Below, in pieces: positions 1-4,153 of a DNA stretch of 4,153 nt (its first letter is position 1; the number at the start of each line of letters is the position of its first letter). The stretch is taken from assembly GCF_003334255.1 (NCBI RefSeq), contig NZ_QOWU01000111.1; one strand, written 5' to 3'. A model generated the notes under the pieces. It ran no database searches. It had not been told where the DNA came from and was given only the letters and a program-made list of their open reading frames with translations. The stretch is from Escherichia coli. GTDB taxonomy: Bacteria > Pseudomonadota > Gammaproteobacteria > Enterobacterales > Enterobacteriaceae. The position numbers and the translations under genes are program-made.

Positions 1-114
1 ACGCGAGGCATCGTCTTAACGAGGCACCGAGGCGTCGCATTCTTCAGATGGTTCAACCCTTAAGTTAGCGCTTATGGGTTCAAGTCCCCGATGGCGGTCC
101 ATTATCTGCATCAT

Positions 115-191
115 GCGTTGTTAGCTCAGCCGGACAGAGCAATTGCCTTCTAAGCAATCGGTCACTGGTTCGAATCCAGTACAGCGCGCCA
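115..191 (+). tRNA. tRNA-Arg, anticodon TCT (decodes AGA), 77 nt with encoded CCA
   Basis: Hand-folded cloverleaf. Acceptor 115-121 GCGTTGT pairs with 181-187 ACAGCGC (one G-U pair). D stem GCTC 124-127 / GAGC 137-140. Anticodon stem ATTGC 142-146 / GCAAT 154-158 with 7-nt loop CTTCTAA, anticodon TCT at 149-151. 5-nt variable loop. T stem ACTGG 164-168 / CCAGT 176-180 with loop TTCGAAT. Discriminator G188, CCA 189-191. Resembles the argO/argN-type tRNAs carried in lambdoid late regions (from memory, not searched). Confidence 0.85.
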
Positions 192-298
192 TATTCATTC
201 TTCCAGATTCCTTTCGGCAGAGCCTTATACTGAAATATACCTGGCTCAGGATATTGTTGAAAATATTATATGTTTGTCAAAAATAAAAGTTCTGTTAA

Positions 299-655
299 GT
301 GTTGATTGAGTGTTTGTTATACGGTCTAATGGTTTTTTCAGCATTAAATATTTATCATTCATATGGTGTGGGTAGAGTGAATATTGATGAGGCGTCGGGG
401 TGTTTCATCCTTAGGCAGCGTATTGATATAGTCAATGCAGAACGAGCAAAGGCCTTCAGCCGTTTGACAGTTTTGTTCTGTACTCCTGATCGTCTTTCGG
501 GAAGAGACGTTATTATTCTGAATAGTGATGCTATACAGAGGGTTTGCGATGAGTTCATGGTGGCTAATTCAGAATTATTTGCTCTTGTTCAGGAGTACAA
601 CAGAATAGCCAGGACCTGTGGTATGGATGAACTTCGGATTACTCATCTGGGGTAG
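299..655 (+). CDS. hypothetical protein (118 codons as drawn; true start uncertain, candidates GTG299, ATG329, GTG377)
   Basis: Open frame from the six-frame track ending at TAG 653-655. No convincing Shine-Dalgarno in front of any candidate start. 6 of 11 Arg codons are AGA/AGG (3 AGA, 3 AGG), directly beside a tRNA-Arg(TCT). AT-rich promoter-like stretch 250-298 upstream. No domain recognised by eye. Confidence 0.3.
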   Translation: MLIECLLYGLMVFSALNIYHSYGVGRVNIDEASGCFILRQRIDIVNAERAKAFSRLTVLFCTPDRLSGRDVIILNSDAIQRVCDEFMVANSELFALVQEYNRIARTCGMDELRITHLG

Positions 656-735
656 ATACATATCTGGATTATCACCGGTTACGGTAAAAAGTGATTGCTT
701 ACTGTTTTTGTGAATGGCATTGCAGCAGCCGGATA

Positions 736-822
736 ATGTCAGTGCTGGCTGACGGTGTGCTGGTGGCGGGTGTGGTGGTTGCTGCTTTCCCGTTGCTGAA
801 AAAGAAAACGCCAGACTGTTAG
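736..822 (+). CDS. candidate small hydrophobic peptide, 28 aa (MSVLADGVLVAGVVVAAFPLLKKKTPDC); frame is open back to GTG691, which would give 43 aa
   Basis: ATG 736, TAG 820-822. One uninterrupted hydrophobic stretch of about 17 residues followed by KKK, typical of small single-pass membrane peptides (type I toxin-like or leader-like). GC-rich, E. coli-like codon choice. Only a weak SD (GGAT/CCGGA) upstream. Below the ORF-track length cut-off, so found by reading. Confidence 0.2.
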   Translation: MSVLADGVLVAGVVVAAFPLLKKKTPDC

Positions 823-1047
823 CCGGGTATCAGTTAGCGGGAGAAATTTTTAAATACTTCACAATTCAGGCGGTTGACTGTTGTCTGGTTTGCGGGGAGT
901 TTGTTAAAAGAAACTGGCATGGTGAATCCCCCTGTGCGGAGGGGCAATCAGCGAGTAGGTATATGGGATAATCGCGGATTCAGGTGCTGGTACTGAATTC
1001 ACCGGGAGGCACCCGGCACCATGCAATGGCACATAGCGCCACTCTCC

Positions 1048-1083
1048 AGCCCCTCTCCGGAGGGGCTGTTTATATTGATTTTG
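1048..1083 (+). terminator. Rho-independent terminator candidate, plus-strand orientation
   Basis: Perfect 8-bp GC-rich stem AGCCCCTC (1048-1055) / GAGGGGCT (1060-1067) with 4-nt loop TCCG, followed by GTTTATATTGATTTTG. On the minus strand the same hairpin is followed by GGAGAGTGG (no U tract), so it looks unidirectional. Confidence 0.5.
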
Positions 1084-1102
1084 TCAGATGTGAGTAAACT
1101 CC

Positions 1103-1438
1103 TTATGGACTTTGTTGTTTTAGCCCATAAGGACATATTTGCAGAGTGCAACGGTTATTAAAGCATTCATTCAATACGTTATCTGTATTTGTAGGGCATT
1201 CCTGGCTGTTTTTGATTAAATTCCAGAATGTTTTATTGAATGGTACTACGTTGTAAATGGTTACAGGCAGCACTTTGTTATTGAGCATGATGCCTGTGTG
1301 AGTCAGTGTAAATATACTTTCAGGAGGTAAGAAAGCATCCGATTGATACCAGATTATTAATTTTATTTTACTCCATATGACTGAAAAAGATATTCCGCAT
1401 GATGGCTGGATAACTGTATCAATCACAATCCACTTCAT
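1103..1438 (-). CDS. hypothetical protein, 111 aa, AT-rich moron-like gene convergent with the late operon
   Basis: Only long ORF in a roughly 30-35% GC block (hand count of subsegments) where the plus strand is littered with stops in all frames. SD AAGGA about 6-7 nt upstream of the ATG at 1438 (minus-strand reading AAGGAAACTAA-ATG). Cys-containing C-terminal segment ([26 protein letters not shown]). No family recognised. Confidence 0.4.
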
Positions 1439-1478
1439 TTAGTTTCCTTGTTTATGCCTTGCTGGTGATGTTCTGAAA

Positions 1479-1505
1479 AGTATAAATGATATTTTTGATT
1501 GTAAA
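1479..1505 (-). promoter_or_regulatory. possible sigma70 promoter for the minus-strand 111-aa ORF
   Basis: On the minus strand: -35-like TTTACA (plus coords 1500-1505), 15-nt spacer, -10-like TATACT (plus coords 1479-1484), about 40 nt upstream of the ATG at 1438. AT-rich context makes chance matches likely and the spacer is short. Confidence 0.2.
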
Positions 1506-1683
1506 CCATAGATCAGAATTATTTTTCTGATGTTGTTTATTGTTTATTTAAATGCAGGGTGGTTTATATCTCGTCTTGTAGTTTATCCATGCATATCTGC
1601 TTGATGATGAGGTTTTTAATTAAGGTATGGTTTTGTGTTTTTTCTGTATTACATGTCAGGTATTTTAAAGAATCATTTTTCAG

Positions 1684-1887
1684 ATGGTGGAAAGAACCAT
1701 GGCATTTAAACACTATGATGTTGTCAGGGCGGCGTCGCCGTCAGATCTTGCGGAAAAGCTGACACATAAACTGAAAGAGGGCTGGCAGCCGTTTGGTAGT
1801 CCGGTGGCCATAACCCCTTATACCCTGATGCAGGCGATTGCAGCAGAAGGTGATGTGGTGGTCAGTGGTGCAACTGAGCCGGAGTGA
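1684..1887 (+). CDS. DUF1737-like small phage protein (67 aa from ATG1684; alternative start ATG1699 preceded by GGTGGAAAG)
   Basis: Sequence MAFKHYDVVRAASPSDLAEKL...GWQPFGSPV resembles, from memory, the DUF1737 domain that occurs as small standalone prophage proteins and as the N-terminus of nanS-p-type esterases found between Q/stx and S in lambdoid prophages. Stop TGA 1885-1887. Confidence 0.6.
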   Translation: MVERTMAFKHYDVVRAASPSDLAEKLTHKLKEGWQPFGSPVAITPYTLMQAIAAEGDVVVSGATEPE

Positions 1888-2042
1888 TACTACGTCATCG
1901 TACTGGCCCGGCATTCCAGGCCATAAAAGACGGTCTGGCAGTGGGACTAAATGCACTGACGCTGACGGATATTACCAAAAATGCAACGTATGGCGTTGAG
2001 ATAGAAAGTCTGGTGCTGGAGATAAATGCACCGGCATCATCA
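1878..2042 (+). pseudogene. possible 3' remnant of a larger gene (frame shifted relative to the DUF1737 ORF)
   Basis: A different frame is open from 1878 to TAA 2040-2042 and translates to a protein-like tail (...[50 protein letters not shown]) with no ATG start (only GTG1884). Together with the upstream DUF1737 ORF this looks like an internally deleted multi-domain gene. Could alternatively be a small overlapping ORF or chance. Confidence 0.3.
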
Positions 2043-2130
2043 TAAAAAGTGAGCCAGTCAAATGGAAGGTATCGTTAAACTCACCGGTAGTGTCAGTGGG
2101 TCGTCTGAGACGCCTGCATGAGTTATCAGA

Positions 2131-2160
2131 GCCATCAGTACTTAACTGGTGGCTTTTTTA
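2131..2160 (+). terminator. Rho-independent terminator immediately upstream of the holin gene
   Basis: 8-bp stem GCCATCAG (2131-2138) / CTGGTGGC (2146-2153) with one G-U pair, 7-nt loop TACTTAA, followed by TTTTTT (2154-2159). Confidence 0.6.
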
Positions 2161-2194
2161 TTGTTGTCAGCTTCCGGATAACGGGAGACGGGGT

Positions 2195-2410
2195 ATGTAC
2201 CAGATGGAAAAAATCACAACAGGTGTGTCATACACCACGTCAGCGGTGGGAACGGGCTACTGGTTCCTGCAGTTGCTGGACAGGGTTTCCCCGTCTCAGT
2301 GGGCGGCAATAGGCGTGCTGGGGAGTCTGCTGTTTGGGCTGCTGACATATCTGACTAACCTGTATTTCAAAATCAAAGAGGACCGGCGTAAGGCGGCGCG
2401 GGGAGAGTAA
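2195..2410 (+). CDS. S: class II holin (phage 21 S21-like pinholin), 71 aa, probable dual start Met1/Met4
   Basis: Protein [71 protein letters not shown] is near-identical in the C-terminal two thirds to phage 21 S as I recall it. Two TMDs (a Gly/Ala/Ser/Thr-rich TMD1 and a hydrophobic TMD2) with a charged C-tail. SD GGAGA before ATG2195, second in-frame ATG at 2204. The ORF-track entry 2090..2410 is the same frame, but its extension runs through the terminator hairpin. Confidence 0.9.
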
Positions 2411-2414
2411 AGTG

Positions 2415-3305
2415 ATGAATAAAAAATATGAACTGGTTGTTAAGGGGATAAATAATTACGGGGATAAGGTTACTGTTACTGTGAAGCCGGAAGGTGACGG
2501 GCAAGCGTCGCTGTTGTTGCCAGATGTGGCGATTAGTCTTGACCGTACTGAAGGTGCCACGCTGGAGTTTTACGAAGCTGAGGCGAAAAAGCAGGCGAAG
2601 CAGTTTTTCATGGATGTTGCTGCCGGGTTATGTGAAGGGGATGGTCCGTTGCCGGAAAAGCGCCCCGTAATTTTAGAGGCGCAGGATGTGTTGATAACCT
2701 ACAAAGGAAAGCTACCGGGAAGAATTACTTGTTCTCTGAAGATGCCGCCGTCAACACTGCGGTCAGAAAAAGATGATGTTGAATCACGTATTGAAAAACT
2801 GGAGAGCTACGTCGTTGAGCTGAATAAGAAATGGTCGATATTGGTGCCTTCTGGCGATGAAAAGCAGTTTGCTGCGTTTGACGATTATTGTCGGAAAGTG
2901 ATGAGCAGAAATCTCGCAGAGTGTTTCAGTATTCATAATGATAATTTCAGTGACCCGGAATGGGAGTGTAACCGGCCATCCTTTGTTGTATCCGGTGATG
3001 CTGGGAAAATAACCATCTCAGAAAATGGGAAAGTAACACCTCCATCGCACCAGCACAGTGAGGAGCTCATTGAATTTGCCATTGATTACCTGAAGAACAA
3101 TAAAAAGCAGGGGCTGATGAAGCGCGTTGGCCGTTGCATGGGATATCTGCAGGTAGCTGCTGAGATTGAAGCGCTGGCCAGTGGTGCTGATAAGGATGCA
3201 ATTGTGCGGGAGGCTCTTCTTCGTGATTTTAATACTCCACCCTTTAAAAAAGTGCCGGCTTACTGGCTTCATCCGGGGCTGACTTATCTTAAAGTGCGTA
3301 TTTAG
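2415..3305 (+). CDS. hypothetical protein, 296 aa, inserted between holin and endolysin (function unknown)
   Basis: Long clean ORF with ATG at 2415 (GTG at 2412 also in frame). SD GGGAGAG at 2401-2407 sits 7 nt upstream and overlaps the last codons of S, whose TAA stop (2408-2410) lies between SD and start, i.e. translational coupling. No signal peptide or TM segment and no catalytic motif recognisable by eye. Stop TAG 3303-3305. Confidence 0.7.
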   Translation: MNKKYELVVKGINNYGDKVTVTVKPEGDGQASLLLPDVAISLDRTEGATLEFYEAEAKKQAKQFFMDVAAGLCEGDGPLPEKRPVILEAQDVLITYKGKLPGRITCSLKMPPSTLRSEKDDVESRIEKLESYVVELNKKWSILVPSGDEKQFAAFDDYCRKVMSRNLAECFSIHNDNFSDPEWECNRPSFVVSGDAGKITISENGKVTPPSHQHSEELIEFAIDYLKNNKKQGLMKRVGRCMGYLQVAAEIEALASGADKDAIVREALLRDFNTPPFKKVPAYWLHPGLTYLKVRI

Positions 3306-3341
3306 TGGGCCAGGGACAGCGGCTGAATATTTAATATATCC

Positions 3342-3875
3342 ATGAACACCAAAATCAAATACGGCCTGTCGGCTGCCGTTCTGGCGCTGATTGCCGCTGG
3401 TGCGCCTGCGCCTGACATTCTCGACCAGTTTCTGGATGAAAAGGAAGGCAAGCACACCACAGCATACCGTGATGGTGCGGGTATCTGGACCATCTGCCGA
3501 GGTGCCATCATGGTGGATGGTAAGCCTGTGATTCCTGGCATGAAGCTGTCGAAGGAAAAATGCGACTGGGTTAACACTATCGAACGGGATAAGGCGCTGG
3601 CGTGGGTGGAGAAAAACATCAGAGTGCCACTGACCGAACCCCAGAAAGCGGGGATCGCGTCATTCTGTCCGTACAACATTGGTCCCGGTAAGTGTTTCCC
3701 GTCGACGTTTTACAGACGAATTAATGCTGGTGATCGAAAAGGTGCCTGCGAAGCGATTCGCTGGTGGATTAAGGACGGTGGCAGAGACTGCCGTATTCGT
3801 TCAAACAACTGTTACGGTCAAGTATCCCGTCGTGACCAGGAGAGCGCGCTGGCGTGCTGGGGTATCGACAGATAA
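3342..3875 (+). CDS. R: SAR endolysin (phage 21 R21-type lysozyme, T4-lysozyme fold), 177 aa
   Basis: N-terminal weakly hydrophobic Gly/Ala-rich signal-anchor-release segment (GLSAAVLALIAAGAPAP). Catalytic triad spacing E35-x8-D44-x5-T50 (EGKHTTAYRDGAGIWT) seen directly. Overall very close to lambdoid/Stx-phage R proteins as I recall them. No strong SD upstream (36-nt gap after the previous stop). Confidence 0.92.
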   Translation: MNTKIKYGLSAAVLALIAAGAPAPDILDQFLDEKEGKHTTAYRDGAGIWTICRGAIMVDGKPVIPGMKLSKEKCDWVNTIERDKALAWVEKNIRVPLTEPQKAGIASFCPYNIGPGKCFPSTFYRRINAGDRKGACEAIRWWIKDGGRDCRIRSNNCYGQVSRRDQESALACWGIDR

Positions 3876-3965
3876 GCAGAATATTTTGCTGAAAAATGAG
3901 GAATGGCCACGCGGGCGGATAACACGAAATCCTGCGAACTGGCGAAACGTAAGTGAATAAAAGTA

Positions 3966-4008
3966 AAAACCCCGTTTGTTGGCACCAAGCGAGGTTTTGT
4001 GTTTCTGA
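3966..4008 (+). terminator. weak candidate stem-loop/terminator downstream of R
   Basis: AAAACCCCG (3966-3974) can pair with CGAGGTTTT (3990-3998) with one mismatch around a 15-nt loop, followed by GTGTTTCTG. The stem is A/U-rich at its base and the loop is long, so this is marginal. Confidence 0.2.
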
Positions 4009-4031
4009 CCTTGAGTAAGGCAAGGGAGAAC

Positions 4032-4153
4032 ATGGCGAAGTATAAACGAATTCTGTTGAGGTTGACTATGAAAAATGGCCTTGAACTGAAAGCGCCTGTA
4101 ACTGATGACATCAGCAGAGCACTGGCTTTTGCCATTAAGTGGGTGGCGGTCGG
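4032..4153 (+). CDS. hypothetical protein, 5' partial (runs off window end); occupies the slot between R and the expected spanin genes
   Basis: ATG4032 preceded by purine-rich SD AGGGAGA (4023-4029). Frame open to the window end (MAKYKRILLRLTMKNGLELKAPVTDDISRALAFAIKWVAV...). N-terminus is not TM-like, so not an Rz i-spanin. In Stx-type prophages an antirepressor-like gene sits between R and Rz (recollection), which may be what this is. Confidence 0.45.
   Translation, partial: MAKYKRILLRLTMKNGLELKAPVTDDISRALAFAIKWVAV

What the first reader, a model, noticed from the sequence alone, without database searches (positions are those of the whole stretch)
1..191. Phage-borne tRNA-Arg(TCT) preceded by a tRNA-like remnant
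A complete, well-folding tRNA-Arg(TCT) is encoded at 115-191. Upstream, 74-101 contains a T-arm-like GGGTTCAAGTCCCC and ends in GGTCCA, and 47-59 contains GGTTCAACCC, but I could not fold either into a full cloverleaf. This may be a decayed second tRNA (Stx-type phages carry a three-tRNA cluster here) or the footprint of a past recombination event.
Basis: partly seen in the sequence, partly recalled or inferred. Interest (0 to 1): 0.3.

Follow-up and report, generated by a model that had tools for sequence, protein, structure and literature searches.

The report
IS186 insertion splitting prophage tRNA gene
The "tRNA-like remnant" is the last 25 bases of a second prophage arginine tRNA gene (argN) that was cut in two by the common E. 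coli jumping gene IS186, while the neighbouring tRNA-Arg(UCU) gene is intact; this is an ordinary, explainable event.

Summary
ARAGORN and Rfam confirm a complete tRNA-Arg(TCT) at 115-191, the argO of the lambdoid ileZ-argN-argO cluster. The upstream "remnant" has two unrelated parts.

- **1-76:** 76/76 identical to the right end of E. coli K-12 IS186, including its 23-bp terminal inverted repeat at 54-76.
- **77-101:** identical to the last 25 nt of an intact argN, tRNA-Arg(TCG), in an almost identical prophage of strain G1/2. There the homology runs unbroken from 76 to 4153.

The break lies inside the argN T-arm, GGGGTTCAAGTCCCC. This matches the published IS186 target, GGGG(N6/N7)CCCC. It is the only such site in 9 kb of the intact prophage.

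Related genomes show complete IS186 insertions at the same T-arm position with 11-bp target duplications (GGTTCAAGTCC). They occur in both orientations and in several argN alleles. A junction I predicted for chromosomal tRNA-Leu(CAG) exists in one genome.

So argN was split by transposition, not decayed by mutation. Its 5' half and ileZ presumably lie about 1.34 kb upstream, outside the window. This is ordinary and of low interest. The one minor new point is that G4/C4 tRNA T-arms are natural IS186 hotspots.

The parts
1..76 (+). Right end of insertion sequence IS186 (IS186/IS421, IS4 family). This is the non-coding tail downstream of the transposase gene insL, which lies upstream of the window and reads towards argO. 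It corresponds to IS186A positions 1264-1339 of 1339.
   Evidence: 76/76 identical to K-12 IS186A (K-12 annotation). The same junction with a full 1339-bp IS186 (1339/1339 identical to K-12) is seen in L007. L006 matches the whole window 1-4153 with 1 mismatch.
54..76 (+). Right terminal inverted repeat of IS186, CAACCCTTAAGTTAGCGCTTATG (reverse complement of the left repeat CATAAGCGCTAACTTAAGGGTTG).
   Evidence: The 23-bp self-complementary match between the two ends of IS186A and window 54-76. The same ends bound every 1339-bp copy examined.
77..87 (+). Right-hand copy of the 11-bp target-site duplication GGTTCAAGTCC. The left-hand copy is expected about 1.34 kb upstream, outside the window.
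   Evidence: Inferred for this window. Shown directly in complete insertions at the same T-arm position: L011 (argN) and L010 (tRNA-Leu) have TSD GGTTCAAGTCC, L012 has GGTTCGAGTCC, and L004 has GGGGCGGGTCC. L007 has 'CC' before the left IS end, which is consistent.
77..101 (+). 3' fragment of argN, tRNA-Arg(UCG). It holds part of the 5' T-stem strand, the T-loop, the 3' T-stem strand, the 3' acceptor strand ATGGCGG, the discriminator T and an encoded CCA. It cannot form a tRNA on its own. G76 could belong either to the IS or to the tRNA.
   Evidence: Identical to the 3' end of the intact 77-nt tRNA-Arg(tcg) of strain G1/2 (L003 2450-2526). No tRNA is called here and there is no cloverleaf fold.
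102..114 (+). argN-argO spacer (TTATCTGCATCAT), unchanged from the intact cluster.
   Evidence: Alignment A1.
115..191 (+). argO, an intact tRNA-Arg(UCU) gene. It has anticodon loop CUUCUAA, a 7-bp acceptor stem with one U.G pair, and an encoded CCA.
   Evidence: ARAGORN. Rfam RF00005, 68 bits. Annotated as argO / tRNA-Arg in 933W and many Stx phages at about 94% identity. Identical to the argO region of strain G1/2 in alignment A1.

Best explanation
The window begins inside a copy of IS186 that transposed into the T-arm of argN. argN is the middle gene of the ileZ-argN-argO tRNA cluster that lies downstream of the Q antiterminator in a Qin-like lambdoid prophage of E. coli.

Mechanism. The IS186 transposase recognises the G-run/C-run palindrome GGGG(N6/7)CCCC. 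The argN T-stem and loop, GGGG-TTCAAGT-CCCC, is exactly such a site. Staggered cuts two bases inside each run, followed by repair, duplicate the 11 bp GGTTCAAGTCC.

Result. argN is split into a 5' piece, left of the IS and outside the window, and the 25-nt 3' piece at 77-101. tRNA-Arg(UCG) is therefore lost from this prophage. argO (115-191) is untouched and remains a functional-looking tRNA-Arg(UCU) for the rare AGA/AGG codons.

Shown: the identity of every segment, the position of the break, the target motif, and the TSD rule in sister insertions.

Inferred: (1) the 5' half of argN and ileZ still sit about 1.34 kb upstream in the source genome; (2) argO is still transcribed by read-through from upstream, that is from the phage promoters or insL, which points the same way. 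No sigma-70-like promoter was found between the IS end and argO.
For: - **IS identity:** window 1-76 is 76/76 identical to the end of K-12 IS186A.
- **Homology break:** the best E. coli genomes match only 76-4153. Strain G1/2 has 1 mismatch and carries intact tRNA-Ile/Met(cat), tRNA-Arg(tcg) and tRNA-Arg(tct) at the corresponding place.
- **Switch point:** alignment A1 shows the change from IS186 to argN sequence at 76/77.
- **Published target:** IS186 inserts at 5'-GGGG(N6/N7)CCCC-3' in either orientation (PMC5009759). The intact argN T-arm GGGGTTCAAGTCCCC is the only such motif in 9 kb of L003.
- **Complete insertions at the same position, with TSDs:** L011 (argN, inverted, GGTTCAAGTCC), L012 (another tRNA-Arg allele, GGTTCGAGTCC), L004 (degenerate argN allele, same orientation as the window, GGGGCGGGTCC, in 9 complete genomes) and L010 (tRNA-Leu).
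- **Prediction tested:** a chimeric tRNA-Leu(CAG)/IS186 junction built from the rule was found 72/72 in strain 300444.
- **Independent copies of the junction:** the window's exact junction occurs in two separate contigs, L006 and L007, and L007 has the full IS186.
Against: - The left junction is outside the window. The window's exact junction was not found in any of 5,426 complete E. coli genomes or any phage record. So the 11-bp TSD and the survival of the argN 5' half and ileZ in this particular genome are inferred from sister loci.
- L006 and L007 are draft contigs that break in or at the IS.
- A metagenome scan for the argN-5'/IS186 junction found nothing.
- Nothing here tests whether argO is still expressed.
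Confidence: 0.96

Rival explanations
1. A second tRNA gene that decayed in place by point mutations and small deletions (a tRNA pseudogene).
For: No tRNA is detected in 1-114. Degenerate argN alleles do exist in related prophages: the mEp460/strain 205 type is not called a tRNA by ARAGORN.
Against: Positions 77-101 are identical to the intact gene. Everything left of 76 is 100% IS186, not diverged tRNA sequence. The boundary coincides with the IS terminal repeat.
Confidence: 0.01
2. The 3'-tRNA fragment is an attachment-site duplicate (attL/attR type) left by a phage or island that integrates into a tRNA-Arg gene using a tyrosine integrase.
For: Duplicated 3' ends of tRNA genes are the usual footprint of integrase-mediated insertion (general knowledge). 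The fragment includes the T-arm and the acceptor 3' strand.
Against: The adjoining DNA is the inverted-repeat end of a 1339-bp IS with a DDE transposase, not an integrase-bearing element. The duplication in sister loci is 11 bp, typical of IS186. The gene is destroyed, not reconstituted.
Confidence: 0.01
3. IS186-mediated rearrangement rather than simple insertion: the IS sits at the argN T-arm, but adjacent deletion or recombination between IS186 copies has removed or replaced ileZ and the argN 5' half.
For: The left junction is not in the window and contigs L006 and L007 end at the IS. IS-IS recombination is frequent in E. coli (PMC5009759). L008 shows the argN 5' half joined to an IS186 and then, after an N, to a different prophage. 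That join could be a scaffolding artefact or a rearrangement.
Against: L007 has 'CC' immediately before the left IS end, as expected for an intact TSD. All four complete sister insertions are simple, with perfect TSDs.
Confidence: 0.1
4. Assembly chimera: a short-read assembler joined an IS186 end from elsewhere to the prophage at a G-rich string.
For: IS186 is multicopy and contigs commonly break at it. L008 contains an N at an IS end.
Against: The junction falls exactly at the IS terminus and inside a perfect IS186 target motif. It recurs in two different prophage backbones, L006 and L007. Complete genomes show the same kind of event with both junctions.
Confidence: 0.02

Closest known systems
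IS186 (IS186A/B/C of E. coli K-12; named 'IS4-like element IS421 family' by PGAP) and its hotspot insertions, for example the lon promoter of E. coli B and fimA/menC in mutation-accumulation lines
   Same: 100% sequence identity over the 76 nt present. The same 23-bp terminal repeat. The same target rule GGGG(N6/7)CCCC, with a 10-11 bp duplication in sister loci.
   Different: The target here is the T-arm of a prophage tRNA gene. I found no description of tRNA T-arms as IS186 targets in the papers searched, but that library is incomplete.
ileZ-argN-argO tRNA cluster of Stx-converting phages (933W, VT2-Sakai and others)
   Same: The same gene order and position downstream of the Q antiterminator. 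argO and the argN 3' end are about 94% identical to 933W.
   Different: argN is interrupted. The prophage has no stx, and a Qin-like lysis region follows instead. 933W argN has the T-arm GGGGTTCGAGTCCTC, which lacks the IS186 motif. argO here has A37 where 933W has G37.
Integrase-mediated insertion of phages and islands into the 3' ends of tRNA genes
   Same: A mobile element sits inside a tRNA gene, leaving a short tRNA 3' fragment beside it.
   Different: The mechanism is a DDE transposase recognising a G/C-run palindrome, not a tyrosine recombinase acting on an att core. The tRNA is inactivated rather than restored.
IS629/IS1203 insertions in Stx prophages (for example the PA2 versus PA8 prophages, PMC10810198 abstract)
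   Same: An IS element inserted in a lambdoid prophage regulatory or late region.
   Different: A different IS family and a different target. Those cases concern effects on Stx production, which is not relevant here.

Membership tests
IS186 (IS4 family insertion sequence) | 23-bp terminal inverted repeats CATAAGCGCTAACTTAAGGGTTG | tested here: met
   The right repeat is present at window 54-76, exact. The left repeat is outside the window, but is present in L007, which has the same junction.
IS186 (IS4 family insertion sequence) | Sequence identity to the reference element | tested here: met
   Window 1-76 is 76/76 identical to K-12 IS186A positions 1264-1339. The L007 copy is 1339/1339 identical.
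IS186 (IS4 family insertion sequence) | Encodes the InsL DDE transposase | not testable with these tools
   The gene lies upstream of the window. In sister loci the IS encodes WP_001300563.1, 'IS4-like element IS421 family transposase'.
IS186 (IS4 family insertion sequence) | Insertion at GGGG(N6/N7)CCCC with duplication of the core plus two bases on each side (10-11 bp) | tested here: met
   The uninterrupted allele has GGGGTTCAAGTCCCC at the break point, matching the rule in PMC5009759. The TSD itself is shown only in sister loci. The window holds just the right-hand copy.
tRNA (argO, tRNA-Arg UCU) | Cloverleaf that scores above the family threshold, with a defined anticodon | tested here: met
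   ARAGORN places it at 115-191 with anticodon tct. Rfam RF00005 gives 68 bits against 29.
tRNA (argN, tRNA-Arg UCG) | Complete cloverleaf | tested here: not met
   Only the last 25 nt remain (77-101). There is no tRNA call at E<=10 and no cloverleaf fold. It is a gene fragment, not a tRNA.
ileZ-argN-argO cluster of lambdoid/Stx phages | Three tRNA genes in this order downstream of Q | tested here: inconclusive
   The argN 3' end and argO are present in the right order and spacing. ileZ and Q would lie upstream of the IS, outside the window. They are present in the near-identical intact prophage L003.
Stx-converting phage | stxA/stxB immediately downstream of the tRNA cluster | tested here: not met
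   Downstream are phrog_2873, DUF3927, STnc100, iraM, holin, phrog_1085 and endolysin. There is no stx.

The most novel reading that the evidence does not exclude
tRNA T-arms whose stems are G4/C4 (GGGG-TTCRAGT-CCCC) form a systematic class of IS186 hotspots. IS186 would then repeatedly prune the tRNA sets of lambdoid prophages (argN alleles) and occasionally hit redundant chromosomal tRNA genes (leuQPV). Prophage tRNA alleles that lack the motif, such as 933W argN with CCTC, would be protected. The evidence does not exclude this. At least four or five apparently independent insertions were seen at the same T-arm position, in both orientations and in different alleles, and a predicted tRNA-Leu junction was found.
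Probability: 0.55. Interest if true: 0.25.

Novelty: already known. Interest (0 to 1): 0.12.

Why it matters
It matters little in itself. The result explains an odd-looking tRNA-like string as a routine IS186 insertion and removes the suggestion of a decayed tRNA or an unexplained recombination scar.

There are practical consequences. Annotators should mark argN here as interrupted and should not or 76-101 tRNA-like features. This prophage supplies tRNA-Arg(UCU), and presumably tRNA-Ile, but no longer tRNA-Arg(UCG).

The small general point is that the IS186 target motif coincides with a common tRNA T-arm sequence. Some tRNA genes are therefore predictable IS186 targets. This could be used when interpreting contig breaks and tRNA-count differences between E. 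coli assemblies.

Tried and rejected
- **Second tRNA in 1-114:** searched with ARAGORN and with Rfam at E<=10. Nothing was found except a chance sR33 snoRNA hit on the minus strand (14.9 bits against a gathering score of 37, E 1.2), which I rejected.
- **Folding:** 25-101 and 40-114 folded as RNA give no cloverleaf, with z-scores of -0.5 and -1.0.
- **Repeat family:** I first suspected 1-106 was a dispersed repeat such as a MITE or ERIC-like element, because it hits a median of 5 places per genome. This resolved as IS186 copies plus similarity at the target site.
- **Exact junction in public genomes:** absent from 5,426 complete E. coli genomes and from 50,697 phage records. Found only in two IMG/VR contigs.
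- **Left junction for this allele:** viral contigs gave only L008, an inverted IS in a scaffold containing an N. A metagenome scan gave 0 hits.
- **Outward promoter:** none found in the IS186 right end or the spacer by the consensus scan. This is weak negative evidence only.
- **Literature on IS186 in tRNA genes:** nothing found. SaiSree et al. 2001 (PMC95536) is not held. The supplement of PMC5009759 is not held.

Full report
**Observation**

The window's first 200 bases were read directly. ARAGORN finds one tRNA in the whole window, tRNA-Arg(tct) at 115-191. Rfam's tRNA model matches 115-188 at 68 bits against a gathering score of 29.

No second tRNA is detectable in 1-114, even with Rfam at E<=10. 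The 77 nt ending at 101 do not fold into a cloverleaf.

**What 1-114 is**

A megablast of the whole window against 5,426 complete E. coli genomes gave best hits that start at position 76, not 1. In strain G1/2 the match 76-4153 has a single mismatch. Three tRNA genes sit at the corresponding place downstream of a Q-type antiterminator. ARAGORN calls them Met/Ile(cat), Arg(tcg) and Arg(tct). This is the ileZ-argN-argO arrangement annotated in phage 933W.

Window 76-101 is the 3' end of the middle gene, argN. The intact argN folds as a clean cloverleaf at -35 kcal/mol, z = -2.9.

Window 1-106 searched alone hits many places per genome. The best of these lie next to a gene annotated 'IS4-like element IS421 family transposase'. 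Direct comparison shows window 1-76 is 76/76 identical to the last 76 nt of K-12 IS186A. IS186A is 1339 bp from repeat to repeat, and the window includes its 23-bp terminal inverted repeat at 54-76.

The K-12 annotation puts the insL stop 171 nt before the IS end. So 1-76 is non-coding IS sequence, not the end of a protein gene.

**The junction is real**

The exact junction sequence occurs in two IMG/VR contigs. L006 matches the entire window 1-4153 with one mismatch. L007 is a different prophage backbone. It carries a full IS186 that is 1339/1339 identical to K-12, preceded by 'CC'.

**Why the insertion is there**

Lee et al. (PMC5009759) characterised the IS186 target as 5'-GGGG(N6/N7)CCCC-3', used in either orientation, with only 54 such sites in K-12. 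The uninterrupted argN T-arm is GGGGTTCAAGTCCCC, a perfect N7 site. It is the only such site in the 9-kb locus L003.

In known copies the duplication is the core plus two bases of each run. Examples are K-12 IS186A with GGATCACTCC and yeaR::IS186 of B strains with GGGTAAACCC. This rule predicts GGTTCAAGTCC for argN. The window's right flank begins with exactly that, at 77-87.

**Sister events**

An orientation-independent query was built from the argN 5' half, the predicted TSD and the 23-bp repeat. It found two complete genomes with full insertions.

- Strain Z1323PEC0012 (L011) has ileZ, the argN 5' half, an inverted IS186, the argN 3' end and argO, with TSD GGTTCAAGTCC.
- Strain TUM9803 (L012) has IS186 in a different tRNA-Arg allele with T-arm GGGGTTCGAGTCCCC and TSD GGTTCGAGTCC.
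- Nine further genomes, for example strain 205 (L004), carry IS186 in the same orientation as the window. It sits in a degenerate argN allele with GGGGGCGGGTCCCC, which ARAGORN does not call a tRNA. The TSD is GGGGCGGGTCC.
- A draft scaffold, L008, shows an inverted IS186 against the canonical argN 5' half. It contains an N at the other IS end, so I treat it with caution.

As a test of the rule I built the junction expected if IS186 hit E. coli tRNA-Leu(CAG). I wrote that tRNA sequence from memory, and it matched all genomes. Its T-arm has the same GGGGTTCAAGTCCCC. The 72-nt chimera was found at 72/72 in one genome, strain 300444. There IS186 splits the third gene of the leuQPV operon, with TSD GGTTCAAGTCC.

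The differing alleles and orientations indicate several independent insertions at this T-arm position. 933W's own argN has GGGGTTCGAGTCCTC and lacks the motif.

**Consequences (inferred)**

argN is inactivated. argO is unchanged from the intact prophage in alignment A1.

In the intact prophage, a promoter-like TTGATT-N17-TAAATT lies just after Q; this is my reading of the sequence. It is followed by a strong terminator-like hairpin at L003 2304-2323, upstream of the tRNAs. The tRNAs therefore probably lie in the Q-antiterminated late transcript.

The consensus scan found no sigma-70-like promoter in the IS186 right end or the 38 nt before argO. On the sense strand inside the IS, the only terminator-like site it flagged is a weak one, with a 5-pair stem and a poor T tail. 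insL points towards argO. Expression of argO by read-through is therefore plausible but untested.

**Context**

The window is the late region of a Qin-like lambdoid prophage. It holds phrog_2873, a DUF3927/TciB-like peptide, the STnc100 sRNA, iraM on the minus strand, DUF1737, a holin, a 297-aa phrog_1085 protein and an endolysin. There is no stx.

**Comparison and novelty**

Every component is known: IS186, its target rule, argO and argN. This particular insertion allele is absent from the complete-genome and phage collections searched, but it is an ordinary instance of a known process.

The only mildly new point is that G4/C4 tRNA T-arms are natural IS186 hotspots. I found no mention of this in the searchable literature, and that library is incomplete.

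**Verdict**

Positions 77-101 are a remnant of argN produced by a DNA rearrangement, but the gene was split by IS186 rather than decayed. The 50-59 motif is IS sequence. Interest is low.

Noticed in passing
window 888-1077 (+): Full-length match to the Rfam sRNA family STnc100 (RF02076, 132 bits against 47). It ends in a strong hairpin at 1047-1068 followed by TTTAT. It lies between the DUF3927 peptide gene and iraM. In L007 it follows directly after the argO terminator.
   Followed up: partly
window 299-655 (+): This 118-aa ORF is a full-length member of phrog_2873 (E 1.7e-70, unknown function). No CDS is annotated at the corresponding place in RefSeq strain G1/2 (L003 2616-3116). It is probably a missed gene.
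   Followed up: partly
window 2412-3305 (+): This 297-aa ORF between the holin and the endolysin matches phrog_1085 end to end (E 2e-188). RefSeq annotates only its first ~110 codons, as an 'incomplete YdfR family' pseudogene. The long form looks like the real gene.
   Followed up: partly
window 1103-1438 (-): An iraM (anti-adaptor of RssB) homologue, 111 aa, scores above the NCBIfam cut-off (162 against 121 bits). It is carried antisense inside the prophage late region, as a moron-like cargo gene.
   Followed up: no
window 151 and 183, compared with L001 (933W argO): argO here has A at anticodon-loop position 37 and a U4.G69 wobble in the acceptor stem. 933W argO has G37 and U4-A69. A37 is the usual base for tRNAs reading A-starting codons, so the 933W G37 is the odd one.
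   Followed up: no
L002 2938-3020; L008 2300-2380 (-); L004 flanks of IS186: A second 'argN' allele (phage mEp460, strain 205 type) is not recognised as a tRNA by ARAGORN. Its T-loop region reads GGGGGCGGGTCCCC. It keeps a GGGG(N6)CCCC site and carries IS186 in 9 complete genomes. This one may be a genuinely decayed tRNA.
   Followed up: partly
L010 2250-3588 (E. coli strain 300444): IS186 is inserted in the T-arm of the third tRNA-Leu(CAG) gene of the chromosomal leuQPV operon, with TSD GGTTCAAGTCC. It was found by searching a junction predicted from the target rule. 1 of 5,426 genomes has it.
   Followed up: yes
L005 2077-2106 compared with window 77-106: The yeaR::IS186 junction of E. coli B/BL21 strains stays alignable with the window for about 30 nt beyond the IS end, outside the G4/C4 core. 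This could be chance, or a hint that IS186 target preference extends 3' of the C-run.
   Followed up: no
L008 2490 (N) and flanks: IMG/VR contig IMGVR_UViG_2690316200_000011 joins two different prophage tRNA regions across one IS186 with an N at the join. It is probably a scaffolding artefact at a repeated IS.
   Followed up: partly
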